A stretch of DNA of 61,254 bases, filler included, from Nemertoderma westbladi (Eukaryota; Animalia; Xenacoelomorpha): NCBI GenBank assembly GCA_032718475.1. It is 3 parts of 3 records of this genome, joined end to end, with 100 filler letters (N's around TTAATTAATTAA, not from the genome) between each part and the next. Parts side by side here need not be neighbours in the genome. Positions count along the whole stretch, not along the records: positions 1 to 17,496 come from JAUCBJ010006389.1; positions 17,597 to 42,216 come from JAUCBJ010000205.1; positions 42,317 to 61,254 come from JAUCBJ010000774.1. One strand, written 5' to 3'. The translations under genes and the position numbers were made by a program. Shown here piece after piece: positions 7,780 to 57,684 of this stretch. The stretch's first letter is position 1. Every line of letters begins with the position of its first letter. Under the pieces are notes generated by a model that worked only from the letters and a program-made list of their open reading frames with translations, did no database searches and was not told the DNA's origin.

Positions 7780-10700
7780 GTATGTGTACGAACAATCCTG
7801 TCTATGTATGTATACGAACAATCCTGTCTAGGTATGTGTACGAACAATCCTGTCTATGTATGTGTACGAACAATCATGTCTAGGTATGTGTACGAACAAT
7901 CATGTCTAGGTATGTGTACAAACAATCCTGTCTAGGTATGTGTACGAACAATCCTGTCTAGGTATGTGCACGAACAATCCTGTCTATGTATGTGTACGAA
8001 CAATCATGTCTAGGTATGTGTACGAACAATCATGTCTAGGTATGTGTACAAACAATCCTGTCTAGGTATGTGTACGAACAATCATGTCTAGGTATGTGTA
8101 CGAACAATCCTGTCTAGGTATGTGTACGAACAATCATGTCTAGGTATGTGTACGAACAATCATGTCTAGGTATGTGTACGAACAATCATGTCTAGGTATG
8201 TGTACGAACAATCCTGTCTAGGTATGTGTACGAACAATCATGTCTAGGTATGTGTACGAACAATCATGTCTAGGTATGTGTACGAACAATCATGTCTAGG
8301 TATGTGTACGAACAATCCTGTCTAGGTATGTGTACGAACAATCCTGTCTATGTATGTGTACGAACAATCCTGTCTATGTATGTGTACGAACAATCCTGTC
8401 TATGTATGTGTACGAACAATCACGTCTAGGTATGTGTACGAACAATCATGTCTAGGTATGTGTACAAACAATCCTGTCTAGGTATGTGTACGAACAATCC
8501 TGTCTATGTATGTATACGAACAATCCTGTCTAGGTATGTGTACGAACAATCCTGTCTATGTATGTGTACGAACAATCCTGTCTATGTATGTGTACGAACA
8601 ATCCTGTCTATGTATGTGTACGAACAATCACGTCTAGGTATGTGTACGAACAATCATGTCTAGGTATGTGTACAAACAATCCTGTCTAGGTATGTGTACG
8701 AACAATCCTGTCTAGGTATGTGTACGAACAATCATGTCTAGGTATTTGTACAAACAATCCTGTCTAGGTATGTGTACGAACAATCCTGTCTAGGTATGTG
8801 TACGAACAATCCTGTCTAGGTATGTGTACAAACAATCCTGTCTAGGTATGTGTACGAACAATCCTGTCTAGGTATGTGTACGAACAATCATGTCTAGGTA
8901 TGTGTACAAACAATCCTGTCTAGGTATGTGTACGAACAATCCTGTCTAGGTATGTGTACGAACAATCCTGTCTATGTATGTGTACGAACAATCCTGTCTA
9001 TGTATGTGTACGAACAATCACGTCTAGGTATGTGTACGAACAATCATGTCTAGGTATGTGTACAAACAATCCTGTCTAGGTATGTGTACGAACAATCCTG
9101 TCTATGTATGTGTACGAACAATCCTGTCTATGTATGTGTACGAACAATCCTGTCTATGTATGTGTACGAACAATCACGTCTAGGTATGTGTACGAACAAT
9201 CATGTCTAGGTATGTGTACAAACAATCCTGTCTAGGTATGTGTACGAACAATCCTGTCTATGTATGTGTACGAACAATCCTGTCTATGTATGTGTACGAA
9301 CAATCACGTCTAGGTATGTGTACAAACAATCCTGTCTAGGTATGTGTACGAACAATCCTGTCTAGGTATGTGTACGAACAATCATGTCTAGGTATGTGTA
9401 CAAACAATCCTGTCTAGGTATGTGTACGAACAATCCTGTCTATGTATGTGTACGAACAATCATGTCTAGGTATGTGTACAAACAATCCTGTCTAGGTATG
9501 TGTACGAACAATCCTGTCTAGGTATGTGTACGAACAATCATGTCTAGGTATGTGTACAAACAATCCTGTCTAGGTATGTGTACGAACAATCCTGTCTAGG
9601 TATGTGTACGAACAATCCTGTCTAGGTATGTGTACGAACAATCATGTCTAGGTATGTGTACAAACAATCCTGTCTAGGTATGTGTACGAACAATCATGTC
9701 TAGGTATGTGTACAAACAATCCTGTCTAGGTATGTGTACGAACAATCCTGTCTATGTATGTGTACGAACAATCCTGTCTATGTATGTGTACGAACAATCA
9801 CGTCTAGGTATGTGTACAAACAATCCTGTCTAGGTATGTGTACGAACAATCCTGTCTAGGTATGTGTACGAACAATCATGTCTAGGTATGTGTACAAACA
9901 ATCCTGTCTAGGTATGTGTACGAACAATCCTGTCTATGTATGTGTACGAACAATCATGTCTAGGTATGTGTACAAACAATCCTGTCTAGGTATGTGTACG
10001 AACAATCCTGTCTAGGTATGTGTACGAACAATCATGTCTAGGTATGTGTACAAACAATCCTGTCTAGGTATGTGTACGAACAATCCTGTCTAGGTATGTG
10101 TACGAACAATCCTGTCTAGGTATGTGTACGAACAATCCTGTCTAGGTATGTGTACGAACAATCCTGTCTATGTATGTGTACGAACAATCATGTCTAGGTA
10201 TGTGTACAAACAATCCTGTCAGGTATGTGTACGAACAATCCTGTCTAGGTATGTGTACGAACAATCATGTCTAGGTATGTGTACAAACAATCCTGTCTAG
10301 GTATGTGTACGAACAATCCTGTCTAGGTATGTGTACGAACAATCCTGTCTAGGTATGTGTACGAACAATCATGTCTAGGTATGTGTACAAACAATCCTGT
10401 CTAGGTATGTGTACGAACAATCCTGTCTAGGTATGTGTACGAACAATCCTGTCTATGTATGTGTACGAACAATCCTGTCTATGTATGTGTACGAACAATC
10501 ACGTCTAGGTATGTGTACGAACAATCATGTCTAGGTATGTGTACAAACAATCCTGTCTAGGTATGTGTACGAACAATCCTGTCTATGTATGTGTACGAAC
10601 AATCCTGTCTATGTATGTGTACGAACAATCACGTCTAGGTATGTGTACGAACAATCATGTCTAGGTATGTGTACAAACAATCCTGTCTAGGTATGTGTAC

Positions 10701-11046
10701 GAACAATCCTGTCTAGGTATGTGTACGAACAATCCTGTCTAGGTATGTGTACCAACAATCATGTCTAGGTATGTGTACAAACAATCCTGTCTAGGTACGT
10801 GTACGAACAATCCTGTCTAGGTATGTGTACGAACAATCCTGTCTATTTATGTGTACGAACAATCCTGTCTATGTATGTGTACGAACAATCATGTCTAGGT
10901 ATGTGTACGAACAATCATGTCTAGGTATGTGTACGAACAATCCTGTCTATGTATGTGTACGAACAATCATGTCTAGGTATGTGTACGAACAATCCTGTCT
11001 ATGTATGTGTACGAACAATCATGTCAAGGTATGTGTACGAACAATA
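7780..11046 (+). repeat. 26-bp minisatellite GTATGTGTACGAACAATC(C/A)TGTCTA(G/T), about 125 units
   Basis: Seen directly. It begins exactly at GAG|GTATGT, and most junctions read CTAG|GTATGT. Confidence 0.97.
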
Positions 11047-11085
11047 TTAATATTTATAATCATAACTATACAATCGCCATGTTAG

Positions 11086-11170
11086 AAAATATAAAAACTT
11101 TATGCGCAGGGCGAAACAGTGGAAATCCTATCAATATGGGTATTGTAATCCCAAAAAAGAAACTGAAACG
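11086..11170 (+). CDS. Putative exon 3 of the same gene (KYKNFMRRAKQWKSYQYGYCNPKKETET)
   Basis: Acceptor TTAG|11086 (alternative CAG|11110 is also in frame), strong donor ACG|GTAAGT, open frame continuous with exon 2. Confidence 0.45.
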
Positions 11171-12231
11171 GTAAGTAACTACGGTTATATACTGTACAGC
11201 ACTACTGTCTGAAGTTTACAATAAATAATAATAAATTAAGTTATACTAAAACCGAGTCATAGAGTTATGTAAAGTACCGCTTCATTGAGCTTATTTAACA
11301 GCATATTAAAAATATCATTAAGGGGGGGGGGGGGGGGGGGGGCGCTTATTTAACACAGTCATTGAAAATCAATGGTAATGGGTCAATCGATAATTGAATG
11401 AACAATTTCCATTCCGAGATAATTATCTCGGAAAAGACCTTTAAAGTTTTTTTTCATCTTTTTCTTTCAGCCTTTAAAGTTTGTACCTTCCCGCGCAATA
11501 ACTGTCCGTCAATCAATATCTAGCAACAATAAAGCAAAAATCTATGTTAAGATTTTTGCTATGGGAGTTTTTCTGGTCGCTAATTTCATTTCTGAGGTCA
11601 GTTTACACTTTCAATGAAATCTATGCTGTCGATATGTCTGTCTGTCGGTCTTACTGACTATCCGACATTCTGTTCGTCAAATATAAGAAAAGCGCACACC
11701 ATATAGCTAAACGTTTAGCTATATGGCCTAGGGGTTTCCTGGTCGCAGAATTCATTTGGAGTGTCAGATTTTACATTTGATAACTTCCAAACTGTTTGTT
11801 TGGCTGTCATGTTTTCGGTTATTTTGACGAACAGACTGACAGGTATACAGACAGAAACGACGAAGCCAAATTTGAATTTTGACATCAGAAATGAAGTCAC
11901 CGACCACAAAAACCCATATAGGGCATTTTTTTTACACAGATATGCTTTTTATTAACGAACAGCTAGACATACTGACGGACAAACCGACAGTCAAACGGAC
12001 AGACAGCCATATATCATATCTTGCTAAACGGTTTTAAAATTTGAAATCTTTATAAAATTTGCTTTAGATGAAATAGAAAAAAAATTGCAAATTATTGAAA
12101 TAACGAAATTTGGAAATTTTACAAACTCAACTAAATACCCATATATCTTAGTAAATTTGATTCTAGAACACATTTACTGTTTCCGAGTATCATCGTGATA
12201 TTTGTATGCTTTACTATATGCATAGCTAATA

Positions 12232-12540
12232 ATGTCAGAGCGACATTCAGTGAAACGCTATTTTCCAAATGAACCAAACATTGTTGAATTGAGCCTTGCA
12301 TTGGATACTGAATTTGCGGCAATTGAGTTTGCCCAAAAATTCGGCCTGTTACCAACTAAGAATCTAAGCAATGAGCATTCATGTGAGCAATGTGGTGAGC
12401 CATGTTCACTGTATGTTTTGAATAATAAATATGGAATACCACGTCTCAACTGGCAATGCAAGAATAAGCACAGGAAATCTGCAAGATATGGTTCCTGGTT
12501 TAGTAAATCGGAGCTACTAATTCACCAAATTCTATTTATT
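12232..12540 (+). pseudogene. Merlin (IS1595/IS1016-like) transposase N-terminal zinc-ribbon fragment
   Basis: AIEFAQKFGLL...CEQCG...WQC...SARYGSWFSKS.L matches the Merlin N-terminal pattern as recalled. Truncated by a SINE tail at about 12541. Mirrored subterminal motifs at 11560-11920. Confidence 0.7.
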
Positions 12541-12605
12541 ATTATACATTTATTATAGGAAGGGATCTAGGGGTCTTAACAACCTCGAATGATAAGTTTA
12601 TTTTA
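12541..12605 (-). mobile_element. 3' tail fragment of the hammerhead-bearing SINE family
   Basis: TTATACATTTATTATAGGAAGGGATCTAGGGGTCTTAAC...CTCGAATGATAAGTTTATTTTA matches 40258-40318 and, in part, 21931-21968. Confidence 0.75.
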
Positions 12606-13934
12606 TTAATATACCACCTGGACGAAATAATTACGGGAAGCAAGTGAACGGACCGTGGGTGTTTGGAATAGTATGGAGAAAGGGCACTAATTCGATATAG
12701 GTCACCCAATTTGGAATTTTTACACTCACCTAAATAATAAGGTGGAGTGATTTGCACTTTTTTTCGAATTTGTGTTGGAACCGTGGTGGGAAAGTTGTGA
12801 AATCGGTCAAAAATAACTACTTCAAAGTTTTACAAAATTTCATCAAAATCTTCACCTCTCTCACGACTTTCCAAAATTTGAAAATTGATGCACGCCTTCA
12901 AAAATTTTAAAATTTTGTAATTTCATGCAAGCCTTTATTTTTTACTGAACCATGCAACAGTATCTTTAAAATGAGTCAATGGGAGCTGTGAAAACCTTTG
13001 ATCTATTTTGGTTTATATCTTCACCTCCCTCCAGAGGTGACAAAATGGATAAAAAAAGTGCAAAAATTTAAAGTACTCTTGTACTTCCAAGTACTATTTT
13101 AAACCTACTGCGTACTTGATTTGCTAAACATTACCACAAATACTAATAAAGAGATTGCGGGATTTTTAAAATTGTTGTTGATGAGTGTACTGTCAGGTGA
13201 TGGCATTCTGAAATCAGTAATTCACTTTTTACATACTCTAAAGTCAGTCTTGACATACTGACATAACATGTTAGTATTAGTACTGTATGTCATTTCAGAA
13301 TTTACTTTTGCTACTTGTATCGATTTATCAAAGACCAAAATGATCAATTGTACCAGAAAAATAACTGTCATCTTTAACTAGGTAGGCCTAACTGTTTCTG
13401 GTACACACAACTGTGTTTAGTGAACAGCTTGCTAGGGCAATTTATTCAATAGTATCTACATCATTGTCCAGAATAGGGTGTTTCCCTTCACTTCTATGGG
13501 GCTTTCTATTACTCCTACCTGTCCCAAATACGTTGTCTAATGATTTCCAACCTGTCCAATATAGGGGCATCCAATCAAATCATCATATGAGCCAACTCCT
13601 CTTCATCGGACCAATACCAACATTCCTAAAGTTAGGCATCCTCCTTATTGGCTATATAATGTAAAGGTTAATGGAAAATTCCACTGATATATAATCCAAG
13701 GTGTCAACTACGAATCCAGGGCTCATTATAACAACCTATACTGGACAGAGCAACGTATTTGGGACAAGAGCTGGTTGAGGTATATGTACAGTGGAAATTC
13801 CCATTCTAAATAAGGGCATTTGGAATACTTGTTCCCTAGTTATGGTTAAAGATATACTGTGGGTGCCTTGCAAATGGCCTGTAAGACTGTGATGCATTAT
13901 AGGCTATAGTGTCATCATAGACACGTTATTTAAT

Positions 13935-14042
13935 TTCATGTTGTACAATTTATTCATATTGTGCAATTTATCATGTTGTGCAATTTATTCATTATGCAAT
14001 TTATTCATTGTGCAATTTATTCATGTGGTGCAATTTATTCAC
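13935..14042. repeat. Short degenerate 16-20-bp tandem repeat (TTGTGCAATTTATTCA)
   Basis: About six copies visible. Confidence 0.8.
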
Positions 14043-14159
14043 TTATAATAAATCTAAATACATTCGTATATTAATAATTAAATGACAATCAAATTAGTGA
14101 TATCGCAACCTCCTCCCCCGGACTCAACTTCATCCCAAATAGTCCTTAATAAGTCTTAA

Positions 14160-17100
14160 ATTTGAATCAAATAGGTTGTTAGTGTCCCATATAGGGTGTT
14201 TGTGTCCCATATAGGTTGATTTTGTCCAAAATAGCCTGTAGCTTTATCAAAATTATTTCAAATAGTTTATAAATGTAAAGGAATACTGAAAAGAATATTG
14301 ACTTCATAATCATAGCTGTAATTCCAATTTGTCCCAAATTGGTTGTTTATGTCCCATATAGGGTGTTTGTGTCCCACACAGGGTGTTTTTATACCAAATA
14401 GCATGTAACTTTCTCAAAATGATTTTACATAGTTTATAAATATGATGGAAATACTCAAAAGAAAATAGAATCCACTATCATACATAGCTTTAATTTAAAT
14501 TTGTCCCAAATAGGTTGTTTGTGTCCCATATAGGGTGTTTGTGTCCCAAATTGCGTGTGACTTTCTCAAAATGATTTTACATAGTTTATAAATGTAATGG
14601 AATACTCAAAAGAATATAGAATTCACTATCATAGCTTTAATTTAAATTTGTCCCAAATAGGTTGTTTATGTCCCATATAGGGTGTTTGTGTCCCATATAT
14701 GGTGTTTGTGTCCCAAATTGCGTGTGACTTTCTCAAAATGATTTTACATAGTTTATAAATGTAATGGAATACTCAAAAGAATATAGAATTCACTATCATA
14801 GCTTTAATTTAAATTTGTCCCAAATAGGTTGTTTATGTCCCATATAGGGTGTTTGTGTCCCATATATGGTGTTTGTGTCCCAAATTGCGTGTGACTTTCT
14901 CAAAATGATTTTACATAGTTTATAAATATAATGGAATACTCAAAAGAAAATAGAATTCACTACCATAGCTTTAATTTCAATTTGTCCCAAATAGGTTGTT
15001 TTTGTCCCATATAGGGTGTTTATGTCCCGTATAGGGTGTGTTTTGCTTATAATGATTTCCAATAGTTTCTAAATGTAGGGGAATACTCAAAAGAATAGCG
15101 AATTCACTACCATAGCTTTAATTTCAATTTGTCCCAAATAGGTTGTTTTTGGCCCATATAGGGTGTTTATGTCCCGTATAAGGTGTTTGTGTCCCAAATA
15201 GCGTGTGACTTTCTCAAAATGATTTTAAATAGTTTCTCAATCTCATGGAATCCTCAAAAGAATATAGAATTCACTACCATAGATTTAATTTCAATTTGTC
15301 CCAAATAGGTTGTTTTTGTCCCATATAGGGTGTTTGTGTCCCGTATAGGGTGTGTATTGCTTATAATGATTTCAAATAGTTTCTAAATATAGGGGAATAC
15401 TCAAAAGAATATAGAATTCACTACCATTGCTTCAATTTCAATTTGTCCCGAATAGATTGTTCATGTCCCATATAGGGTGTTTGTGTCCCATATAGGGTGT
15501 TTGTGTCCCATATAGGGTGTTTGTGTCCCATTGCGTGTGACTTTCGCAAAATGACTTTACATATTTTATAAATATAATGGGATACTCAAAAGAAAATAGA
15601 ATTCACTATCATATCTTTAATTTAAATTTGTCCCAAATAGGTTGTTTTTGTCCCATATAGGGTGTTTGTGTGCCAAATAGCGTGTGACTTTCTCAAAAGG
15701 ATTTTACATAGTTTATAAATATAATGGAATACTTAAAAGAAAATATAATTCACTATCATTTTTTCTTTAATTTAAATTTGTCCCAAATAGGTTGTTTGTG
15801 TCCTGTATAGGATGTTTCTGTCCTGAATAGGGGAATACAGATTGCCAACACATTGTTGCTGAATAGGGTGTACATTTCTTATAATGATTTTAAATAGTTT
15901 CTAAATGTAATGGAATACTCAAAAGAATATAGAATTCACTATCAGAGCGTTAATTTAAATTTGTTCCAAATATGTTGTTTGTGTCCCAAATTAGGTGTTT
16001 GTGTCCCATATAGGGTGTTTTTGTACCATATAGCGTGTGACTTTCTCAAAATGATTTTAAATAGTTTCTAAATCTCATGGAATCATCAAAAGATTATAGA
16101 ATTCACTACAATAGCTTTAATTTCAATTTGTCCCAAATAGGTTGTTTTTGTCCCATATAGGGTGTGTTTTGCTTATAATGATTTCCAATAGTTTCTAAAT
16201 GTAGGGGAATACTCAAAAGAATAGCGAATTCACTACCATAGCTTTAATTTCAATTTGTCCCAAATAGGTTGTTTTTGGCCCATATAGGGTGTTTATGTCC
16301 CGTATAAGGTGTTTGTATCCCAAATAGCGTGTGACTTTCTCAATATGATTTTAAATAGTTTCTAAATCTCATGGAATCCTCAAAAGAATATAGAATTCAC
16401 TACCATAGATTTAATTTCAATTTGTCCCAAATAGGTTGTTTTTGTCCCATATAGGGTGTTTGTGTCCGGTATAGGGTGTGAATTGCTTATAATGATTTCA
16501 AATATTTTCTAAATGTAATGGAATACTCAAAAGAATATAGAATTCACTATCATAGCTTTAATTTCAATTTGTCCCAAATAGGTTGTTTTTGTCCCATATA
16601 GGGTGTTTGTGTCCGGTATAGGGTGTGAATTGCTTATAATGATTTCAAATATTTTCTAAATGTAATGGAATACTCAAAAGAATATAGAATTCACTATCAT
16701 AGCTTTAATTTAAATTTGTCCCAAATAGGTTGTTTATGTCCCTTATAGGGTGTTTGTGTCCCATATAGGGTGTTTGTGTCCCAAATTGCGTGTGACTTTC
16801 TCAAAATGATTTTACATAGTTTATAAATATAATGGAATACTCAAAAGAAAATATAATTCACTATCATAGCTTTAATTTCAATTTGTCCCAAATAGGTTGT
16901 TTTTGTCCCATATAGGGTGTTTGTGTGCCAAATAGCGTGTGACTTTCTCAAAATGATTTCATATAGTTTATAAATATAATGGAATACTTAAAAGAAAATA
17001 TAATTCACTATCATTTTTTCTTTAATTTAAATTTGCCCCAAATAGGTTGTTTGTGTCCTGTATAGGGTGTTTCTGTCCTGAATAGGGGAATAGCTTGCCA

Positions 17101-17496
17101 AACACATTGTTGCTGAATAGGGTGTACATTTCTTATAATGATTTTAAATAGTTTCTAAATGTAATGGAATACTCAAAAGAAAGTATAATTCACTATCATA
17201 GCTTTTATTTAAATTTGTCACAAATAGGTTGTTTATGTCCCATATAGGGTGTTTGAGTCCCAAATGGCGTGTGACTTTCGCAAAATGATTTTACATAGTT
17301 TATAAAGAAAAAATATTTTTTTTATTATTCCATTATATTTATAAACTATGTAAAATCATTTTGAGAAAGTCATACGCTATTTCGGACACAAACACCCTAT
17401 ATGGGACACAAACACCCTATATGGGACAAAAACAACCTATTTGGGACAAATTTAAATTAAAGCTATGATAGTGGATTCTATTTTCTTTTGAGTATT
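14160..17496. repeat. Complex satellite (about 130-190-bp units built on 19-20-bp GTCCCATATAGGGTGTTTGT subrepeats) that inverts at about 17315
   Basis: About 20 diverged units. From about 17327 the sequence is the reverse complement (GGACACAAACACCCTATATGGGAC) up to the gap. Confidence 0.9.
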
Positions 17497-17596
17497 NNNN
17501 NNNNNNNNNNNNNNNNNNNNNNNNNNNNNNNNNNNNNNNNTTAATTAATTAANNNNNNNNNNNNNNNNNNNNNNNNNNNNNNNNNNNNNNNNNNNN
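17497..17596. other. Artificial 100-bp scaffold linker N44-TTAATTAATTAA-N44
   Basis: An identical structure occurs at 42217-42316. The core gives stops in all six frames. Confidence 0.97.
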
Positions 17597-20049
17597 TCTA
17601 TATAAACAGAGTTATGACTTAAACTACTCACAACGATATGGCTTAATTATAATTCACATATATGGCGCATTCTTTAGGAATTGCTTCTTTAACAGACTCA
17701 CTCATACACAATGCTGCACAATACTGCACACTAATCTGCCAATCTTCACTGATTTTAGTCACATATAAAAGGAACACAGACTGAATTATGTAGGGTCTAT
17801 CAAATAACATTAGATTCACTTCAAACCACTTTAACATAAGTCACAATCGTTATGTATAACCCTTCTCTCTTACCTTCGGTATATCAAGAATATTGGGTTT
17901 CGGGGTTATTTATCGTTATTCCAAATATAATAATTCATCAACCATGTTATGAAGAACTGACAGTAAATAGCAGTATAAAACAACAACTGAACACTGATTG
18001 TTACGAGTTTGCAATGTTTCAGCAGTCAGCATGTATGATCAGTTAGCAGTGATTCCATGAGTCAGGTAGTTAAAGGATATATGTCCTTGTAATTAAACCT
18101 ACTAGTGTAAGACTAAAAACAGTAAAGCACAAAATACTTCCAAGCCGTTCTTTCTTTGGCTCAGGACTAAATGTAAACACTGCACATAGGCATTGCGTCA
18201 TTTCTCGGAAATTTTCTGTACAAGGAGCCACAAAAACGCTCTAATTGGCTGACTGAACTGAGAGACGCCGTAGAACAAAGGAAATCAACACGTATGAATG
18301 TCAGCTGTTAACCGTAGTCATAGTAACTACTGTTCAAGAGTAGCTATCACCCCTTTGCGTCACGAATTGCCATAGAATCATAAAATATGCCTTTCACAGT
18401 ACACATACGGAGGAAATAGGTCTTAGATCCTCTAAAAACACCGATACAGCAATAATACGGTCTCTTACACTTATTAAATCAACTACAGAGTATTTTAATG
18501 CAAAAGATAATAAAAATAACGGGGCAATTCAGCAAAGGCTTTTACAGGTTTTTTTCCAGATACTTTAAAAAAGGCCAAAATTATACCAATTTTTAAATCC
18601 GAAGATCCAACAGATAAAAATAACTACCGTCCCATATCTATTCTACCAATTTTCACCAAAATTTACGAACGTGTTATCAACGCACAACTAGTATAGCTTG
18701 CCTAAACAAATACGAATTATTATCTCCATCTCATCACGGATTCCGTAAACAAATTACTACTATCGACGCACTCCTTAGACGTTCGTGGGGCCATCGCGCA
18801 GGACGAGGCTCAGTTATCAGATACAGATATTAAAATTGAGCGACTGTATCACAATATCAGGTTTTGAGAAATTTACCCACAGCCCACACCACCAATCAAT
18901 CAAAGAAAGGGGGACAGTACGTGTTCGCCCCTTTTAATCTGCACCCCCCCCCCCCACCCTTCCCACCCACCAGTAATTTATAACTACCGATGCCTTCAAC
19001 GCAGTAGGCAGTACTCGTCTTCATTATTATAAACGTCGTTGTGCTCGTCCTGTTTTGTATTTAAACATATTTCCTAAACGCAGACTGACGGACGATCTTT
19101 ATAACTACCGATGCCTTCAATAGGCGAAGCCAGGTATGGTTTATAGGAATATAGTCTACGCAGTACTGGTCTTCATTATATGCCTCGTTGCGCTCGTCGC
19201 TCGTCCTGTTTTGCATTAAAATATTTTTCCTAAACCAAGAGTGACGATCTTTATACAGATATAAATATGCGAAGTTTCGAAACTGTGCGAGTAACTGCTG
19301 ATACATCTATGTGGAGATGTGTGATACAACGCCAACGCATCGTATGCCGATGTAGTAAATATGGGTATTGATATAATATTAAATCAATGTACACTCTTAA
19401 AGCTGCAGCGAAAAAATGTAGCTAATTTCCTAGGTTACATATAAAATATTAATATTATTTTTAAGAACATTAATTTTACTACTTTGCAAATATTCAATGA
19501 AAAAATAACCAGACAAATATATTGCGGAATAAACTATTTCAGATACTGTATAAGCCTACAACAGTCATGAGTATTTATGTCATTATATCTTCTGTCACCT
19601 GAGATAGTAAGTAATACAACATAGTATAGAGTCAATAGGAATTTAAATACAGGCAGTGTGGTTGGAGTTATGTCTGTGTTGCTATAGCAATACTACAGGA
19701 TGCCTATAACAGTACAATTCCCCTCTGCCCTGGTAAGGCTACACAAACATCTCCCAGCCAGCTAGCAGCTCTACACCCCGCAGAGACTATATTGACCAAT
19801 AATGGGAAGGATTAAATTTGTACTCAATAATTGTGCCGCTTTAATTACGTTTAGATCAATTAAAGACACATTTATTAAAGCAAATCACTTGAACTAATTA
19901 AAAACTATAATGGAATGTTGTATGGGGATTACAGCTGTATAACTTTTAAGAATAATGATTTAAATCTTATACTAGAAAATAATTAATATCCTTTAAGGAG
20001 GCAGGTTGAAATTGATGTTGTTACCCTAATCAACTTAATTCACTAATTA

Positions 20050-36800: not shown

Positions 36801-37964
36801 AGGTAATTCCAAAATTGGGTCTATAATTTGAAATTTGAGGTATTCTCAAATTTGATGATCTCCCTGACTGTTGGATGTAACTTTTCCTCTCTCATAAGTA
36901 AGCCATAAGCTGGCTGCTACTGATAGACAATAGACATTGTGACATGGCACATGGCTTATGAAAATATTCATAATTGAATAATCTAAATACATGGATGGCA
37001 ATTAACCTTATACATATTACATAATAAAGTAATAAACTTACATAACATATTAGCCAATAAAGTAATTAACCTTACATATTACCTTATAAAGTAATTAACC
37101 TTACTTTACCTTACATATTATCTAATTGAGTATTGCGGTCATCGGTCATGCCATGGTCTGATGGTATAGTTGATAGTATAGTATAGTTGAATATTAACTA
37201 TATATACGTCATTGTTCATAAAATAGAACTTTTATAGCGTTACAGCACGAGTGATTTTGTTTCCCTAGCGACAGTGAGTGAAATAATAGAACGAGGGCCG
37301 TAAAAGCTTTAATGTGCTAATTATGAACAATGACGAATCTAATTTTATTTTTTTAGTACAGCCTTATGAAACTACAGCTGTTGAGCTAAATAAAGTTCTG
37401 CAGTTTGTTATAGTAGGCTAAGCTTACTGGGTAATATCCCCCACGGCGTTGTAGGCTACTTGGCTTGCCACTAGTATTGCAGTATCAGAGTATGGGCTGT
37501 GGATTCGGTAGTCTATTAGTTGGTTGGTTAGTCTGTTGCTGTTGTGTCAATGGTACTGGTATGTATGTAGAGTCCAGTGAGCTGTAAATAATTGGCAGCC
37601 ATCTGGCAATAGGGAGCTTTTGAGTGACATACTAGTACATCGGCTCTCTGATTGATCTCAGAGAGGTTATGTTTGGACACCATCTGGCTGGTAAATATCA
37701 TCTGGCTGGATTTTTGATTTAATTATATTATTTACAATAACTTCTTCATACAAGCTCTAAATTTATTGTACAAGCACGTCAAGGTGTAGAATTTGAAGCC
37801 GGTTCTAATGATACTAATATCTCCGTGCCCAAATTTTATTGAGAGTGCCCGTTTAAATTTAAAAATTCCAATGATAAGCTACGGGGATTTCCACTTAAAA
37901 ACTGCAGAATCCAGCCCCCATCTGGCTGTACAAAAGACATGAACTGGCTGACTGTACCTTACTG
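33881..37964. mobile_element. Outer TIR element (23-bp perfect inverted repeat)
   Basis: CAGTAAGGTACAGTCAGCCAGTT (33881-33903) versus AACTGGCTGACTGTACCTTACTG (37942-37964), with internal CAGCCAGATG / CATCTGGCTG mirrors. Confidence 0.65.
34361..36870. mobile_element. Inner 2.5-kb TIR element with 5-bp TSD TTGGA
   Basis: CAGTCAGGGAGATCATCAA / TTGATGATCTCCCTGACTG, TTGGA at 34356-34360 and 36871-36875, and AAATTTGAGG subterminal repeats. Confidence 0.8.
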
Positions 37965-42216: not shown

Positions 42217-42316
42217 NNNNNNNNNNNNNNNNNNNNNNNNNNNNNNNNNNNNNNNNNNNNTTAATTAATTAANNNNNNNNNNNNNNNNNNNNNNNNNNNN
42301 NNNNNNNNNNNNNNNN
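42217..42316. other. Artificial 100-bp scaffold linker
   Basis: Same N44-TTAATTAATTAA-N44 structure as 17497-17596. Confidence 0.97.
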
Positions 42317-46462: not shown

Positions 46463-46546
46463 GCCCTAGCTCAGTCGGTAGAGCGTTGGAAATTATATGT
46501 GTAGTAGGTATTGAGTTCGAATCCTAGTAAGTGCGAATTATTTTTT
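46463..46546 (+). pseudogene. tRNA-derived sequence (pseudo-tRNA or SINE head)
   Basis: A box TAGCTCAGTCGG, B box GAGTTCGAATCC, downstream T6. No proper anticodon or acceptor stems. Confidence 0.65.
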
Positions 46547-46599
46547 GTACAGAATTTCAACTCATTTAAATTAACCGCTACAAATTAATTGCATTTATC

Positions 46600-46775
46600 T
46601 GTACCAATGAGACTGTAGTTATTTGATTGTAACCAATGTCGTGCAAGTTATATATTAGCTGGACCAATAGCTATCTTTAAAACCCCGTTAGAACCCATAG
46701 AACAATCGAGAATTTTCTCGATTGATTGCGGCACAAATTTGCTATATAAAGGTGCGATTTGTTCATTAGTTATCA
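46600..46775 (+). promoter_or_regulatory. Pol II promoter-like module (3x CCAAT plus TATA)
   Basis: CCAAT at 46604, 46633 and 46664, TATATAAAG at 46744, TTAGT about 22 nt downstream. Confidence 0.45.
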
Positions 46776-48279: not shown

Positions 48280-51200
48280 AAATTACAAACTTACATAATT
48301 AGTAGCAACATTAAATGATTACAAACTTACATAATTAGTATCAACATTACATGATTACAAACTTACATACGTAGTAGTAACATTAAATGATTACAAACTT
48401 ACATAATTAGTAGCAACATTAAATGATTACAAACTTATATAATTAGTAGCAACATTACATGATTACAAACTTACATACGTAGTAGTAACATTAAATGATT
48501 ACAAACTTACATAATTAGTAGCAACATTAAATGATTACAAACTTATATAATTAGTAGCAACATTAAATGATTACAAACTTACATACTTAGTAGCAACATT
48601 AAAAGATTACAAACTTACATAATTAGTAGCAACATTAAATGATTACAAACTTACATACTTAGTAGCAACATTAAAAGATTACAAACTTACATAATTAGTA
48701 GCAACATTAAATGATTACAAACTTACATAATTAGTATCAACATTACATGATTACAAACTTACATACGTAGTAGTAACATTAAATGATTACAAACTTACAT
48801 AATTAGTAGCAACATTAAATGATTACAAACTTACATAATTAGTATCAACATTACATGATTACAAACTTACATACGTAGTAGTAACATTAAATGATTACAA
48901 ACTTACATAATTAGTAGCAACATTAAATGATTACAAACTTATATAATTAGTAGCAACATTACATGATTACAAACTTACATACGTAGTAGTAACATTAAAT
49001 GATTACAAACTTACATAATTAGTATCAACATTACATGATTACAAACTTACATACGCAGTAGTAACATTAAATGATTACAAACTTACATAATTAGTTAGTA
49101 ACATTAAATGATTACAAACTTACATAATTAGTAGCAACATTAAAAGATTACAAACTTACATAATTAGTAGCAACATTAAATAATTACAAACTTACATAAT
49201 TAGTATCAACATTACATGATTACAAACTTACATACGTAGTAGTAACATTAAATGATTACAAACTTACATAATTAGTAGCAACATTACATGATTACAAACT
49301 TACATACGTAGTAGTAACATTAAATGATTACAAACTTACATAATTAGTATCAACATTACATGATTACAAACTTACATACGTAGTAGTAACATTAAATGAT
49401 TACAAACTTACATAATTAGTTAGTAACATTAAATGATTACAAACTTACATAATTAGTAGCAACATTACATGATTACAAACTTACATACGTAGTAGTAACA
49501 TTAAATGATTACAAACTTACATAATTAGTTAGTAACATTAAATGATTACAAACTTACATAATTAGTATCAACATTACATGATTACAAACTTACATACGTA
49601 GTAGTAACATTAAATGATTACAAACTTACATAATTAGTATCAACATTACATGATTACAAACTTACATACGTAGTAGTAACATTAAATGATTACAAACTTA
49701 CATAATTAGTTAGTAACATTAAATGATTACAAACTTACATAATTAGTAGCAACATTAAAAGATTACAAACTTACATAATTAGTAGCAACATTACATGATT
49801 ACAAACTTACATACGTAGTAGTAACATTAAATGATTACAAACTTACATAATTAGTTAGTAACATTAAATGATTACAAACTTACATAATTAGTAGCAACAT
49901 TAAATAATTACAAACTTACATAATTAGTACTAGTAGCAACAGTAAATAATTACAAACTTACATAATTAGTAGCAACATTACATGATTACAAACTTACATA
50001 CGTAGTAGTAACATTAAATGATTACAAACTTACATAATTAGTAGCAACATTACATGATTACAAATTTACATACGTAGTAGTAACATTAAATGATTACAAA
50101 CTTACATAATTAGTTAGTAACATTAAATGATTACAAACTTACATAATTAGTAGCAACATTAAAAGATTACAAACTTACATAATTAGTAGCAACATTAAAT
50201 AATTACAAACTTACATAATTAGTAGCAACATTAAATGATTACAAACTTACATAATTAGTAGCAACATTACATGATTACAAATTTACATACGTAGTAGTAA
50301 CATTAAATGATTACAAACTTACATACTTATTTAGTAACATTAAATGATTACAAACTTACATAATTAGTAGCAACATTACATTATTACAAACTTACATAAT
50401 TAGTATCAACATTACATGATTACAAACTTACATACGTAGTAGTTACATTAAATAATTACAAACTTACATAATTAGTATCAACATTACATGATTACAAACT
50501 TACATACGTAGTAGTTACATTAAATGATTACAAACTTACATAATTAGTAGCAACATTAAATGATTACAAACTTACATAATTAGTATCAACATTACATGAT
50601 TACAAACTTACATACGTAGTAGTAACATTAAATGATTACAAACTTACATAATTAGTAGCAACATTAAATGATTACAAACTTACATAATTAGTAGCAACAT
50701 TACATGATTACAAACTTACATACGTAGTAGTAACATTAAATGATTACAAACTTACATAATTAGTAGCAACATTAAATGATTACAAACTTACATAATTAGT
50801 AGCAACATTACATGATTACAAATTTACATACGTAGTAGTAACATTAAATGATTACAAACTTACATACTTATTTAGTAACATTAAATGATTACAAACTTAC
50901 ATAATTAGTAGCAACATTACATTATTACAAACTTACATAATTAGTATCAACATTACATGATTACAAACTTACATACGTAGTAGTAACATTAAATGATTAC
51001 AAACTTACATACTTATTTAGTAACATTAAATGATTACAAACTTACATAATTAGTATCAACATTACATGATTACAAACTTACATACGTAGTAGTAACATTA
51101 AATGATTACAAACTTACATACTTATTTAGTAACATTAAATGATTACAAACTTACATAATTAGTAGCAACATTACATTATTACAAACTTACATAATTAGTT

Positions 51201-54200
51201 TCAACATTACATGATTACAAACTTACATACGTAGTAGTAACATTAAATGATTACAAACTTACATACTTATTTAGTAACATTAAATGATTACAAACTTACA
51301 TAATTAGTAGCAACATTAAATGATTACAAACTTACATAATTAGTATCAACATTACATGATTACAAACTTACATACGTAGTAGTAACATTAAATGATTACA
51401 AACTTACATAATTAGTAGCAACATTACATGATTACAAACTTACATACTTATTTAGTAACATTAAATGATTACAAACTTACATAATTAGTAGCAACATTAC
51501 ATGATTACAAACTTACATACGTAGTAGTAACATTAAATGATTACAAACTTACATAATTAGTAGCAACATTAAATGATTACAAACTTACATACTTATTTAG
51601 TAACATTAAATGATTACAAACTTACATAATTAGTATCAACATTACATGATTACAAACTTACATACGTAGTAGTAACATTAAATGATTACAAACTTACATA
51701 ATTAGTAGCAACATTACATGATTACAAACTTACATACTTATTTAGTAACATTAAATGATTACAAACTTACATAATTAGTAGCAACATTACATGATTACAA
51801 ATTTACATACGTAGTAGTAACATTAAATGATTACAAACTTACATACTTATTTAGTAACATTAAATGATTACAAACTTACATAATTAGTAGCAACATTACA
51901 TTATTACAAACTTACATAATTAGTATCAACATTACATGATTACAAACTTACATACGTAGTAGTAACATTAAATGATTACAAACTTACATACTTATTTAGT
52001 AACATTAAATGATTACAAACTTACATAATTAGTATCAACATTACATGATTACAAACTTACATACGTAGTAGTAACATTAAATGATTACAAACTTACATAC
52101 TTATTTAGTAACATTAAATGATTACAAACTTACATAATTAGTAGCAACATTACATTATTACAAACTTACATAATTAGTTTCAACATTACATGATTACAAA
52201 CTTACATACGTAGTAGTAACATTAAATGATTACAAACTTACATACTTATTTAGTAACATTAAATGATTACAAACTTACATAATTAGTAGCAACATTAAAT
52301 GATTACAAACTTACATAATTAGTATCAACATTACATGATTACAAACTTACATACGTAGTAGTAACATTAAATGATTACAAACTTACATAATTAGTAGCAA
52401 CATTACATGATTACAAACTTACATACTTATTTAGTAAAATTAAATGATTACAAACTTACATAATTAGTAGCAACATTACATGATTACAAACTTACATACG
52501 TAGTAGTAACATTAAATGATTACAAACTTACATAATTAGTAGCAACATTAAATGACTACAAACTTACATACTTATTTAGTAACATTAAATGATTACAAAC
52601 TTACATAATTAGTATCAACATTACATGATTACAAACTTACATACGTAGTAGTAACATTAAATGATTACAAACTTACATAATTAGTAGCAACATTACATGA
52701 TTACAAACTTACATACTTATTTAGTAACATTAAATGATTACAAACTTACATAATTAGTAGCAACATTACATGATTACAAACTTACATACGTAGTAGTAAC
52801 ATTAAATGATTACAAACTTACATAATTAGTAGCAACATTAAATAATTACAAACTTACATAATTAGTATCAACATTACATGATTACAAACTTACATAATTA
52901 GTAGCAACATTAAATGATTACAAACTTACATAATTAGTATCAACATTACATGATTACAAACTTACATACGTAGTAGTAACATTAAATGATTACAAACTTA
53001 CATAATTAGTAGCAACATTAAATGATTACAAACTTACATAATTAGTAGCAACATTACATGATTACAAACTTACATACGTAGTAGTAACATTAAATGATTA
53101 CAAACTTACATACTTATTTAGTAACATTAAATGATTACAAACTTACATAATTAGTAGCAACATTACATGATTACAAACTTACATACGTAGTAGTAACATT
53201 AAATGATTACAAACTTACATAATTAGTAGCAACATTAAATGATTACAAACTTACATACTTAGTAGCAACAATACATGATTACAAACTTACATAATTAGTA
53301 TCAACATTACATGATTACAAACTTACATACGTAGTAGTAACATTAAATGATTACAAACTTACATAATTAGTATCAACATTACATTATTACAAACTTACAT
53401 ACGTAGTAGTAACATTAAATGATTACAAACTTACATAATTAGTAGCAACATTACATGATTACAAACTTACATAATCAGTAGCAACATTAAATAATTACAA
53501 ACTTACATAATTAGTAGCAACATTAAATAATTACAAACTTACATACTTAGTAGCAACAATACATGATTACAAACTTACATACTTAGTAGCAACATTACAT
53601 GATTACAAACTTACATAATTAGTAGTAACATTACATGATTACAAACTTACATAATTAGTAGCAACATTACATGATTACAAACTTACATACGTAGTAGTAA
53701 CATTAAATGATTACAAACTTACATAATTAGTAGCAACATTACATGATTACAAACTTACATAATTAGTAGCAACATTAAATAATTACAAACTTACATAATT
53801 AGTAGCAACATTAAATAATTACAAACTTACATACTTAGTAGCAACAATACATGATTACAAACTTACATACTTAGTAGTAACATTAAATGATTACAAACTT
53901 ACATAATTAGTAGTAACATTAAATAATTACAAACTTACATAACTAGTAGCAACATTAAATAATTACAAACTTACATAATTAGTAGTAACATTAAATGATT
54001 ACAAACTTACATACGTAGTAGTAACATTAAATGATTACAAACTTACATACTTAGTAGTAACATTACATGATTACAAACTTACATACGTAGTAGTAACATT
54101 AAATGATTACAAACTTACATAATTAGTAGTAACATTAAATGATTACAAACTTACATACTTAGTAGTAACATTAAATGATTACAAACTTACATAATTAGTA

Positions 54201-54732
54201 GTAACATTAAATGATTACAAACTTACATACTTAGTAGTAACATTAAATGATTACAAACTTACATACGTAGTAGTAACATTACATGATTACAAACTTACAT
54301 ACGTAGTAGTAACATTAAATGATTACAAACTTACATAATTAGTAGTAACATTAAATGATTACAAACTTACATAATTAGTAGTAACATTAAATGATTACAA
54401 ACTTACATACTTAGTAGTAACATTAAATGATTACAAACTTACATACGTAGTAGTAACATTAAATGATTACAAACTTACATACTTAGTAGTAACATTACAT
54501 GATTACAAACTTACATACGTAGTAGTAACATTAAATGATTACAAACTTACATAATTAGTAGTAACATTAAATGATTACAAACTTACATACTTAGTAGTAA
54601 CATTAAAAGATTACAAACTTACATAATTAGTATTAACATTAAATGATTACAAACTTACATAATTAGTATCAACATTACATGATTACAAACTTACATAATT
54701 AGTAGCAACATAAAATTATTACAAACTTATAT
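48280..54732 (-). repeat. 36/37-bp minisatellite (ATTACAAACTTACATAATTAGTAGCAACATTAAATG), about 180 units, downstream of ACE-like exon 4
   Basis: Seen directly. Degenerate units continue through 54770-54842 towards the exon. Confidence 0.97.
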
Positions 54733-54867
54733 AATATCGTATTGTATTGTATCCTGTCTGCTTAGTAACACTATTAAATGTTTACAAACATATATACCGG
54801 TACTTAATAACAACAGTAAATGTTTTTAACAAACTTAAATATCCGCGACATTTTTGTACAAAATTAC

Positions 54868-54957
54868 CTTTTCAGCAGCAACATTACTTAATTCCACCAG
54901 CCGCTGGTAGCTGGTTAGCATTTTACTACCAGTTTCTTTTCGCCACTTATACCATAT
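54868..54957 (-). CDS. ACE: ACE-like peptidase M2 exon 4 (IWYKWRKETGSKMLTSYQRLVELSNVAAEK)
   Basis: TTTTCTTAG| and |GTAATT, 30 codons, phase 0. Matches the ACE W..W...G....Y...V.LSN.AA segment. Confidence 0.88.
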
Positions 54958-55330
54958 CTAAGAAAATTAAGATAATTAAATAAATGCTTGAAAAATCAGC
55001 AATAAATATATTAATAATTAGCATATATACAGTTTTATTGAATTTATTAAGTAAAGTAAAAAACAGTACCGGTAGTTATTTCCAAGAGTACCTCAAAGTA
55101 AAAAAGCAACCGTGACCTAGGCGTTGCATGCAAACAATAGACGGCAGCCAGATGGCCGGTACGTCACATAATAGCTCACCGGAATGGTAAAACTTTAATT
55201 CTAAAAATATAAAACAAATTAAATAATTTACGATTTCTATGTATTGTGGATCATAATTTTGTATTATGATGTAGATACCCCTTAACATAACATCCGTTTC
55301 TAGATGTTATATCATCGCCCCTTACCTCTT

Positions 55331-55495
55331 GTGGGGCGAGTCAAAACTGCAAACCATCAGCGAACTGTTATAATTATACTTTGGCCGTTTTCTGAAAGTC
55401 TCTGTGTGTGTCGGAAGCCAATATATAATCAGCCGTAGTATAATTATAATTGTTTGCTAAGATGGCTTGCAGCTATTGCTGCACGAAGGCCCCAC
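55331..55495. mobile_element. Imperfect hairpin element between 25-bp direct repeats
   Basis: GTGGGGC...CTGCAAACCATC...TTATAATTATACT is mirrored by AGTATAATTATAA...GATGGCTTGCAG...GCCCCAC. The end resembles the CTCGCCCCACA terminus at 20282. Confidence 0.6.
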
Positions 55496-55530
55496 TCGTG
55501 TACTTTGTCCTATATATCATCGACCCTTAC

Positions 55531-55755
55531 CTCTTGTAATCTGTCGTAATCTCTTCCACTCTCAGAGGCCATGATGTCCTCAAGTTCCTCTAGTTTGTAA
55601 CAAGTTTTATCTTCCAAACAGACTGTCGCTGTGTTATAGATGGTTGACATGTTGGCCATAATTCTAGAATATTCATCATATTTATCCTTCGGCAACGCAA
55701 GGTCCCCAATGTCAGCTATAATCTTTAGCTGTCTTCTCTCAGTAGCCTTGAAATC
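55531..55755 (-). CDS. ACE: ACE-like exon 3 (DFKATERRQLKIIADIGDLAL...NMSTIYNTATVC...C..LE..LEDIMA...DYDRLQE)
   Basis: TTTTAG| and |GTAAGG, 75 codons, hallmark M..IY..A.VC motif of ACE/ACE2/Ance. Confidence 0.92.
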
Positions 55756-56254
55756 CTAAAATTCATACAGAAAAAAATAATTCAATTATAGTGATTGTGG
55801 GGGGGGGGGGGGGGGGGGGGGTGTGGGGTTGTAGGCAGATACAAACTGACCAAAATCTAACTGATGGAAAATTAACTTGATTTTAGACTTAAAAATGAGT
55901 TAATTCAATTCACCTACAGTACAAACTTACATTATATTGTGCACTTTCATTTATTAAAAGAGTACGGGCCTACAAGTCATTTGCAAGTCTATTCAGTCGT
56001 TCATACTGTACATATATACCGGGAAAGTGTATAGGGCCTACCCAGTTCTGCAGTTGTCTAAATATTTTAGTGTGCTTATTAGTAATATCAGTAATATATC
56101 TTAGTTTGCATGAAGCGGGCCCCTAGAGGGTTGAAATAAATAGCTATCATTAGTATCGTTTCACTTTATTATATTATATTTGATTAATATGGATTTGCTG
56201 CAAAAACGAATTATTTAACATTGTCATGAAGCGAACTCAGTTTCTATTCTTTCA

Positions 56255-57684
56255 TAGTACGAACTTACGTTCAATTAACTTATAGTACAAACTTACATAC
56301 CTTTCACTTACATAGTAACTTACATTCCATTAACTTACAGTACAACTTATTTCATTAAACTTACAGTACGAACTTACGTTCAATTAACTTACAGTACAAA
56401 TTTACATACTATTCACTTACATAGAAACTTACATTCCATTAACTTGCAGTAAAAACTTACATACCATTCACTTACAGTAGAAACTTACATCCCATTCACT
56501 TACAGTAGAAACTTACATCCAATTTACTTACAGTACAAACTTACATACCATTAACTTGCATAGAAACTTATATTCCATTAACTTACAGTACAACTTATTC
56601 CATTAAACTTACAGTACAAACTTACATTCCATTAACTTACAGTACAAACTTACATCCCATTTACTTACAGTACAAACTTACATACCTTTCACTTACATAA
56701 AAACTTACATTCCATTAACTTACAGTACAATTACATTCCATTAACTTACAGTAAAAACTTACATCCCATTCACTTACAGTAGAAACTTACATTCCATTAA
56801 CTTACAGTAAAAACTTACATACCATTCACTTACAGTAGAAACTTACATCCAATTTACTTACAGTACAAACTTACATACCATTAACTTGCATAGAAACTTA
56901 TATTCCATTAACTTACAGTACAACATATTCCATTAAACTTACAGTACAAACTTACATTCCATTAACTTACAGTAAAACGTACATACCATTCACTTACATA
57001 GAAACTTACATTCCATTAACTTACAGTAAAACGTACATACCATTCACTTACATAGAAACTTACATTCCATTAACTTACAGTACAGTACAAACTTACATCC
57101 CATTTACTTACAGTACAAACTTACATACCTTTCAATTACATAAAAACTTACATTCCATTAACTTACAGTACAATTACATTCCATTAACTTACAGTAAAAA
57201 CTTACATCCCATTCACTTACAGTAGAAACTTACATTCCATTAACTTACAGTAAAAACTTACATCCCTTTCACTTACAGTAAAAACTTACATACCATTCAC
57301 TTACAGTAGAAACTTACATCCAATTTACTTACAGTACAAACTTACATACCATTAACTTGCATAGAAACTTATATTCCATTAACTTACAGTACAACTTATT
57401 CCATTAAACTTACAGTACAAACTTACATTCCATTAACTTACAGTAAAACGTACATACCATTCACTTACATAGAAACTTACATTCCATTAACTTACAGTAA
57501 AACGTACATACCATTCACTTACATAGAAACTTACATTCCATTAACTTACAGTAAAACGTACATACCATTCACTTACATAGAAACTTACATTCCATTAACT
57601 TACAGTAAAACGTACATACCATTCACTTACATAGAAACTTACATCCCATTCACTTACAGTACAGTAGAAACTTACATCCCATTC
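56255..57684 (-). repeat. ~28-bp minisatellite (AACTTACAGTAAAAACTTACATTCCATT), about 50 units, starting inside the 3' end of ACE-like exon 2
   Basis: Minus strand GAATGGGAT|GTAAGTTTCTAC...GTAAGT is repeated, and divergence is greatest at the distal end. Confidence 0.95.

What the first reader, a model, noticed from the sequence alone, without database searches (positions are those of the whole stretch)
7780..57684. Minisatellite arrays nucleate at 5' splice donors and amplify the donor motif
Seen: all three large minisatellites with 26-36-bp units begin at or fade into an exon/intron boundary, lie on the intron side, and carry GTAAGT or GTATGT on the host gene's sense strand in essentially every unit. 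Three of the four ACE-like donors have downstream copies of their own junction (about 50, 1 and about 180 copies). The units differ from one another, so this is not one satellite family. Inference: a recurring process that duplicates donor junctions and expands introns. Possible explanations are transcription/splicing-linked slippage, tolerance of such duplications by selection, or a function as U1 snRNP landing arrays or alternative donors. I do not know of a description of this pattern but cannot check the literature.
Basis: partly seen in the sequence, partly recalled or inferred. Interest (0 to 1): 0.85.

Follow-up and report, generated by a model that had tools for sequence, protein, structure and literature searches.

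The report
Three splice-donor "mirages" in ACE-like gene

Summary
Partly confirmed. A minus-strand ACE-like gene (Pfam Peptidase_M2) has four exons here. Arrays C28 (about 51 x 28 bp) and B36 (about 178 x 36 bp) are built from the exon 2 and exon 4 tails plus their donors: 10/10 and 19/26 exon bases match in register, p about 0.0005 and 0.0002. The 'single copy' in intron 3 is a two-copy 36-bp junction duplication later split by a 169-bp high-copy element. A contig from a run that behaves as RNA uses the first donor at all three. The third big array (A26, 7778-11045) fails as stated: the transcript joins 3303 to 11110 and skips the presumed exon. So 2 of 3 arrays start at used donors, and 3 of 6 donors carry junction copies, against at most 12 of 284 decoy sites. 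The repeat type is published (lancelet 'mirages'; human F7, 6-16, CBS), and this scan already noted it at many other loci of this genome and in other animals. New here: seed, young and old stages at three consecutive donors. Tolerance of spare donors cannot by itself explain enrichment at donors, so a donor-biased duplication process remains an open, untested possibility.

The parts
58212..58322 (-). ACE-like exon 1 (coding part; signal-peptide-like start). Its donor has no junction copy.
57676..57828 (-). ACE-like exon 2; its last 10 bases are part of the C28 unit
   Evidence: True exon end read as loose end at the exon 3 acceptor; 10/10 tail match
56256..57675 (-). C28 donor array, about 51 copies of 28 bp (about 10 exon + 18 intron bases, two GTAAGT per unit); still holds exact copies of the junction
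   Evidence: TRF; unit listing; 2 exact downstream copies of the 21-nt junction
55920..55930 (-). Stray donor-core copy about 330 bp beyond the end of C28
   Evidence: Only hit of the core outside the masked arrays
55531..55755 (-). ACE-like exon 3
   Evidence: Pfam PF01401 E 1.6e-11; PDB ACE/ACE2 hits; spliced contig
55502..55509 (-). Upstream part of the second copy of the exon 3 tail, cut off from the rest by the insertion
   Evidence: 6/8 match to exon positions -15..-8; chance 0.006
55333..55501 (.). 169-bp high-copy dispersed element with internal inverted arms (MITE/HINE-like; family not identified), inserted into the second junction copy; ends uncertain by about 3 bp
   Evidence: Summed contig depth about 12,000-19,000 against 17-35 on the flanks in runs X1 and X2, many unrelated flanks at 55329-55332 and 55501-55502; inverted arms
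55308..55332 (-). Rest of the second copy of the exon 3 junction (7 exon + 18 intron bases) with an intact but unused donor
   Evidence: 24/25 identity to 55513-55537; with the element removed in silico the period is 36 and 13/15 exon-tail bases match
54868..54957 (-). ACE-like exon 4; its last 26 bases are the ancestor of most of the B36 unit
   Evidence: Pfam PF01401 E 7e-4, below the curated cut-off; spliced contig; 19/26 in register
54736..54867 (-). Decayed lead-in of B36 units, starting at the true donor
   Evidence: Local score 70 against B36; background mean 24.6; 1 of 599 random pieces reached 70, probably the unmasked lead-in itself, not checked
48282..54735 (-). B36 donor array, about 178 copies of 36 bp (26 exon + 10 intron bases), homogenised away from the junction
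   Evidence: TRF; unit-unit 33.3/36 against unit-junction 26.5/36 over 155 of 178 units; exact 691-bp internal repeat
3131..3303 (+). Exon of an unidentified plus-strand gene; its donor is used and has no junction copy
   Evidence: Last 30 nt read as loose end joined to 11110; acceptor at 3131 predicted only; no family
3647..7713 (-). LINE-like retroelement, antisense in that intron, directly upstream of A26
   Evidence: Endonuclease/RT-like ORFs judged by eye, not scanned; the ORF1-like frame gave only weak coiled-coil hits
7729..7779 (+). Candidate 51-nt cassette exon (in frame, stop-free if included), skipped in the only transcript seen
   Evidence: Frame check; skipped
7778..11045 (+). A26 array, about 125 copies of 26 bp, AG|GTATGT on the sense strand; not at a used donor, not derived from any used junction
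11110..11170 (+). Next exon of the plus-strand gene; its donor is used and has no junction copy
   Evidence: Spliced contig; 15/30, background level

Best explanation
The donors of ACE-like exons 2, 3 and 4 each carry copies of their own exon end plus splice signal in the next intron, which likely arose as separate 28-36-bp tandem duplications across the junction, likely grew by slippage or unequal exchange, and are likely tolerated because splicing uses the first copy, as the one transcript seen does. Step 1, shown: each unit matches its own exon tail and no other. Step 2, inferred: a short tandem duplication across a donor leaves the exon and first donor intact and puts the spare copy on the intron side. 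Step 3, inferred from structure: donor 3 stopped at two copies, and a high-copy element landed inside the second copy. Donor 2 grew to about 51 copies and still has exact copies. Donor 4 grew to about 178 and was homogenised away from the exon, with decayed edge units. Step 4, shown for one contig and known from F7: the most upstream donor is used. Step 5, inferred and least certain (about even odds): seeds form more often at donors than elsewhere, most likely through lesions or slippage where transcription and early splicing act on the junction. A26 is most likely an ordinary intronic minisatellite or the donor array of a rarely used or dead cassette exon.
For: In-register exon-tail matches: B36/exon 4 19/26, with 0 of 4241 background sites as high; C28/exon 2 10/10, p=0.0005; no cross-match with p below 0.017. 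Donor 3: 36-bp period and 13/15 tail match once the element, whose ends were set independently by loose ends in four runs, is removed. With one statistic for all (15 exon + 15 intron bases, copy within 420 nt), donors 2, 3 and 4 score 25, 22 and 21 of 30, reached by 2, 6 and 12 of 284 donor-like decoys; the other three donors score 15-16. Binomial P(3 or more of 6) is 1e-4 to 1.4e-3. None of 5 acceptors scored above 18/30 (no separate background run). First-donor use at exons 2, 3 and 4. Concerted evolution and higher-order repeats. Upstream-most donor selection shown experimentally for human F7 (PMC1557585, abstract, introduction and discussion read).
Against: RNA evidence is one contig from one run labelled 'DNA?'; contigs drop rare isoforms, so minor use of spare donors is not excluded. 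The partner exon after exon 4 is not in the window and its 29 nt do not read as clearly ACE-like. The window was chosen because it shows the pattern, so the enrichment p-values are optimistic. Four window shapes were tried: donor 4 is not significant at 10+15 (40/285 decoys) or 12+4 (73/284), and donor 3 is not at 25+10 (81/282) or 12+4 (73/284). Both RNA-supported donors of the plus-strand gene lack copies. A26 has a sense-strand donor motif (about 2% by chance) that this model explains only if the cassette exon is or was real. No mechanism for donor bias was tested.
Confidence: 0.72

Rival explanations
1. Random short duplications plus ascertainment. Tandem duplications arise anywhere in this repeat-rich genome; those crossing a donor survive on the intron side, and the window was picked because several coincide. 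There is no donor bias.
For: Tandem arrays make up 36% of the window. Nine of 10 other repeats lack donor motifs. 0 of 2 plus-strand donors have copies, and A26 is not at a used donor.
Against: 3 of 6 donors against at most 12 of 284 decoys; three consecutive donors with three different units. Unchecked earlier notes report similar densities in other genes of this genome (4 of 8, 4 of 10).
Confidence: 0.13
2. The arrays are kept or allowed to grow because they are U1 snRNP landing arrays that suppress premature polyadenylation in long AT-rich introns (telescripting; concept recalled, not read).
For: A26, B36 and C28 carry 94, 171 and 47 sites with at least 7/9 match to the U1 consensus on the sense strand and none on the other. 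All four large arrays that lie or probably lie in introns have 0 AATAAA/ATTAAA on the sense strand, and three have 17, 114 and 4 on the antisense strand. This would also cover A26.
Against: Only four units, so not significant. The 3.3-kb 167-bp array has 1 such U1 site and still grew. B36 copies gained +5G but lost -1G in 155 of 155 units, with no net gain (7/9 both). Arrays with no poly(A) signal need no protection.
Confidence: 0.07
3. One local satellite core spread between neighbouring introns by gene conversion, so B36 is a chimera of the exon 4 tail and a C28-type donor core.
For: A 14-bp core is identical in 171 B36 and 6 C28 units. The three fixed differences of B36 from its own donor at -3, -1 and +5 all move toward C28 variants. 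There is a stray core at 55920-55930, and 37000-37132 resembles B36 (81% over 48 bp).
Against: Six of the 14 bases are the donor consensus and the rest are T-rich. Exon tails match only their own arrays, so exchange could only have retouched units that were already junction-derived.
Confidence: 0.05
4. The copies act as alternative donors that vary the protein.
For: The first 4 of 80 GTAAGT sites in C28 would extend exon 2 in frame without a stop. Human 6-16 and CBS use two pseudo-sites (PMC1557585 introduction).
Against: The contig uses the first donors. 0 of 171 B36 sites are in frame and stop-free.
Confidence: 0.03

Closest known systems
Lancelet 'mirage' minisatellites (Adh3, troponin C, globins BflGb6/BflGb9, PGBD5). 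PMC3087553: matching passages of abstract, section 16 and supplement legends read. PMC3902484: one passage read.
   Same: Tandem copies of a gene's own exon-intron boundary; locus-specific units (10-72 bp in Adh3); regular splicing apparently undisturbed; concerted evolution with cluster edges left out; mechanism stated as unclear.
   Different: BflGb6 has 3-6 copies; here about 51 and 178 (6.4 kb). Three consecutive donors, one frozen at two copies by an insertion. No acceptor mirage at the 5 acceptors checked here.
Human junction-spanning VNTRs: F7 IVS7 (37 bp, 5-9 copies), 6-16 (25 pseudo-sites), CBS IVS13 (15-20), LMNB2 (10-15), PDGF (16-18). PMC1557585: abstract, introduction and discussion read.
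   Same: First monomer spans the exon-intron boundary; spare donors follow; the most upstream donor is used.
   Different: Isolated loci with at most about 25 copies. Here several per gene, up to about 178 copies, and B36 has drifted to 74% identity with its junction.
Intron gain by tandem duplication of AG|GT proto-splice sites (Rogers model, as cited in PMC3087553; internal tandem repeats in PMC2812944, passages read)
   Same: A26 units carry AG|GT (96 AGGTA/G sites).
   Different: The transcript seen does not splice A26 out as an intron of its own; the whole array lies inside a 7.8-kb intron.

Membership tests
Mirage / junction-spanning minisatellite (C28, B36, donor-3 pair) | Repeat unit contains the end of the adjacent exon plus the splice site | tested here: met
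   10/10, 19/26 and 13/15 exon-tail matches
Mirage / junction-spanning minisatellite (C28, B36, donor-3 pair) | The boundary is a real, used splice junction | tested here: met
   One contig of run X3 uses donors 57676, 55531 and 54868; the partner after exon 4 is outside the window
Mirage / junction-spanning minisatellite (C28, B36, donor-3 pair) | Unit is locus-specific, not a dispersed satellite family | tested here: inconclusive
   Each matches only its own exon, but there is a shared 14-bp core and no genome to search
Mirage / junction-spanning minisatellite (C28, B36, donor-3 pair) | Normal splicing from the exon-proximal site | tested here: met
   major form only, minor use not measurable on contigs
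Mirage / junction-spanning minisatellite (C28, B36, donor-3 pair) | Concerted evolution with decayed edge units | tested here: met
   B36: 33.3/36 unit-unit against 26.5/36 unit-junction; decayed lead-in
Mirage / junction-spanning minisatellite (C28, B36, donor-3 pair) | Copy-number polymorphism or instability | not testable with these tools
Mirage / junction-spanning minisatellite (A26) | First unit spans a used exon-intron boundary | tested here: not met
   Transcript joins 3303 to 11110; no similarity to used junctions. A rare or dead cassette exon at 7729-7779 is not excluded
Intron born from AG|GT tandem duplication (A26) | Array excised between its first GT and last AG, with flanks kept as exon | tested here: not met
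   Flanks are not in the contig seen

The most novel reading that the evidence does not exclude
In this animal lineage 5' splice sites are mutational hot spots for 28-36-bp tandem duplication, through a transcription- or splicing-coupled process. A large share of all donors then carry a junction copy at some stage, and this seed-and-amplify route is a main driver of intron growth. The three consecutive ACE-like donors show seed, young and old stages, and A26 is the array of an exon that has since been silenced. None of my literature searches returned a genome-wide description.
Probability: 0.4. Interest if true: 0.72.

Novelty: new member of a known kind. Interest (0 to 1): 0.38.

Why it matters
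As single loci these are further cases of a published oddity. They would matter if donor bias holds genome-wide: tolerance cannot create such a bias, so it would point to a link between splicing or transcription and where DNA duplications arise, a mechanism the lancelet authors called unclear. The two-copy seed split by an insertion suggests a cleaner test than giant arrays: count two-copy seeds at donors against decoys, after removing insertions. Introns with up to about 170 equal-strength spare donors are also a natural test of first-donor selection.

Tried and rejected
No whole genome is held, so the genome-wide test could not be run. The run search listed no RNA holder on record; X3 and X5 were judged RNA-like from exon-only cover and joints. 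Runs X6 and X7 (other organisms) laid nothing on 11046-11318, which proves nothing. I first read the intron-3 copy as a target-site duplication of the element; rejected because removing the element restores a 36-bp tandem pair with 8 more exon-like bases beyond it. A26 as an acceptor mirage of exon 11110: rejected (10/26, p=0.98). A target-site duplication for the LINE-like element, or a link between it and A26: none found. The exons that follow exon 4 and exon 11110-11170, and a paralog's upstream sequence, are not in the window. Pfam scan of 150 of the 151 non-repeat ORFs of at least 52 aa (the known exon 3 ORF left out): no hit above a curated cut-off, so no further donors to count. Homologue search with exon 3: 45 candidates, none scored, so I did not establish the taxon. 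Search with the plus-strand exon: 6 hits, mostly ankyrin-repeat proteins, judged spurious, so the cassette exon could not be tested by homology. Look-ups of A26 and of the element among earlier notes gave nothing relevant, and there were no notes near this place. Literature: 9 searches returned no genome-wide account of donor-derived arrays. PMC10078293 passages concern short repeats that alter splicing, not junction copies. The original Adh3 paper was not read; no supplements were read, and the library lacks most subscription papers.
Full report
Setting. The window is AT-rich animal DNA in three segments separated by N runs (17497-17596, 42217-42316), so A26 and the ACE-like gene need not be physically linked. 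No genome is held. Tandem Repeats Finder confirms the three arrays: A26 7778-11045 (26 bp x 125.7), B36 48282-54735 (36 x 178.5) and C28 56256-57663 (28 x 51.2). The eight largest arrays make up 36% of the window.

The ACE-like gene. Four minus-strand exons (58322-58212, 57828-57676, 55755-55531, 54957-54868) give an open 193-aa frame, all phase 0 with GT..AG ends. Exon 3 matches Pfam Peptidase_M2 (E 1.6e-11) and human ACE structures; exon 4 matches the next profile positions weakly; exons 1 and 2 alone have no hit. The run search listed no RNA holder, but run X3 covers only exons. One 685-nt contig joins 55531 to 54957 across CT..AC, carries the true end of exon 2 beyond the exon 3 acceptor, and leaves at the exon 4 donor. 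So the first donor is used at exons 2, 3 and 4. The exon after exon 4 is not in the window.

Units come from their own junctions. I placed each exon tail in register before the GT of each array's recurring variants and compared it with about 4,250 background GT sites. The exon 4 tail matches B36 at 19/26 (background maximum 18, p=0.0002). The exon 2 tail matches C28 at 10/10 (p=0.0005). No cross-comparison fell below p=0.017. B36 is 26 exon + 10 intron bases. Its units are 33.3/36 alike but only 26.5/36 like the junction, over the 155 of 178 units that are 36 bp in register. The first 132 intron bases are decayed units, and there is an exact 691-bp internal repeat. C28 still has two exact downstream copies of the 21-nt junction. 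B36 and C28 share a 14-bp donor core (171 and 6 times), which could be convergence or local exchange.

The 'single copy' in intron 3. The 25-bp copy (24/25) abuts a 169-bp stretch with summed contig depth of about 12,000-19,000 against 17-35 on the flanks in runs X1 and X2, and with many unrelated flanks at both ends in all four runs. Depth is not copy number, but this marks a high-copy dispersed element; it has internal inverted arms. Removing it in silico leaves a tandem pair with period 36 and 13/15 exon-tail matches. The 8 bases beyond the element match the exon at 6/8 (chance 0.006). This is a two-copy seed that was later interrupted. Flanking contigs enter the element in both X1 and X2, and no empty-site joint was among the 15 joints shown (4 were not shown).

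A26 fails as described. The X3 contig joins the exon ending at 3303 directly to 11110-11170. The intron is 7.8 kb and holds a LINE-like element (judged by eye) and then A26, which ends 64 bp before the acceptor. A26 does not resemble the bases upstream of 7779 (8/26, p=0.51) or five other junctions. Two facts keep a weaker version alive: its donor motif is on the sense strand (about 2% by chance), and a 51-nt exon at 7729-7779 would be in frame and stop-free. No contig includes it, but contigs drop rare forms, and no homologues were found to test it.

Is it more than chance? Six donors can be counted (five RNA-supported, one inferred); a Pfam scan of 150 of 151 other ORFs found no more genes. 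With one statistic (15 exon + 15 intron bases, best copy within 420 nt) donors 2, 3 and 4 score 25, 22 and 21 of 30, reached by 2, 6 and 12 of 284 decoys. The other three score 15-16. P(3 or more of 6) is 1e-4 to 1.4e-3. Against this, the window was selected for the pattern, and two of the three other window shapes each lose donor 3 or donor 4. A cruder positional test gives P = 0.002 to 0.01 for two array starts within 150 bp of a donor. The five acceptors scored 15-18 of 30.

How it likely works. A short tandem duplication across a donor leaves the exon and first donor intact, and the spare copy falls in the intron (inference). Splicing takes the most upstream donor: shown experimentally for human F7 (PMC1557585) and seen here in one contig. 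Copies then grow and homogenise like any minisatellite (inference). Spare donors are no weaker by a simple count (7/9 match to the U1 consensus for true donors 2-4 and for 171 B36 sites), so position rather than strength would protect splicing. Use as alternative donors is unlikely: 0 of 171 B36 sites and 4 of 80 C28 sites are in frame and stop-free. Tolerance does not explain enrichment, because duplications inside introns are tolerated too. If the enrichment is real genome-wide, seeds must form preferentially at donors; I put that at about even odds and could not test a cause. A U1 or telescripting role has weak support: no sense-strand poly(A) hexamers in four arrays, but the 167-bp array grew with one U1-like site.

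What is known. Lancelet 'mirages' (PMC3087553, PMC3902484; passages read) and human F7, 6-16, CBS, LMNB2 and PDGF minisatellites have the same anatomy at 3 to about 25 copies where counts were given; the lancelet authors call the mechanism unclear and suggest the phenomenon may be more general. C28, B36 and the donor-3 pair meet the features I could test; A26 does not. Earlier notes of this scan, which are unchecked AI notes, gave me the name and these papers. They report the same pattern at many other loci of this genome (68 of 79 notes fit a loose word look-up, 8 shown) and in at least 13 genomes (25 findings). I did not test those loci. Nine literature searches returned no genome-wide description; the library lacks most subscription papers and I read no supplements.

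Verdict. Real for the ACE-like gene, wrong for A26 as stated, and a known kind of repeat already seen repeatedly in this genome. The additions are the interrupted two-copy seed, three stages at consecutive donors, and a local decoy-controlled enrichment. Interest 0.38; new member of a known kind.

Noticed in passing
window:37000-37132 (-): Small decayed array of 4-5 GTAAG-bearing units of about 29 bp. The bases just upstream (ending near 37116) match the unit at 23/30 (2 of 284 decoys), so it may be a fourth donor mirage at an unrecognised exon. No RNA test was left and no Pfam hit was found.
   Followed up: partly
window:55333-55501: 169-bp high-copy dispersed element with inverted arms, a short TG run and a small terminal hairpin; MITE- or Helentron-like by recall, family not identified. 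It is also seen in contigs of the RNA-like run X3.
   Followed up: partly
window:7778-11045, 14156-17448, 48282-54735, 56256-57675: All four large arrays in known or probable introns have no AATAAA/ATTAAA on the sense strand; three have 17, 114 and 4 on the antisense strand. Too few to be significant, but testable genome-wide.
   Followed up: partly
window:11140-11171: A second contig in runs X3 and X5 shares this stretch (2 differences) and the next exon but has a different upstream sequence that is not in the window: likely a paralog of the unidentified plus-strand gene.
   Followed up: partly
window:22272-28781: 6.5-kb perfect (ACAA)n run, 100% matches; the perfection could be biological or an assembly effect.
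   Followed up: no
window:42451-44031 (-): 526-aa THAP / P-element-like transposase frame; weak Pfam THAP and TNP-like hits below cut-off.
   Followed up: partly
window:30147-31070, 58522-59418, 57960-57997: Two near-identical LINE-like RT fragments, and a 38-bp piece of the same element inside ACE-like intron 1.
   Followed up: no
window:41255-41790 (+): A decayed 10/19/29-bp array ends directly before two donor-like GTAAGT motifs; no exon evidence.
   Followed up: no
window:17497-17596 and 42217-42316: Both N runs hold the same 12-bp spacer with stops in all frames, suggesting joined contigs rather than measured gaps.
   Followed up: no
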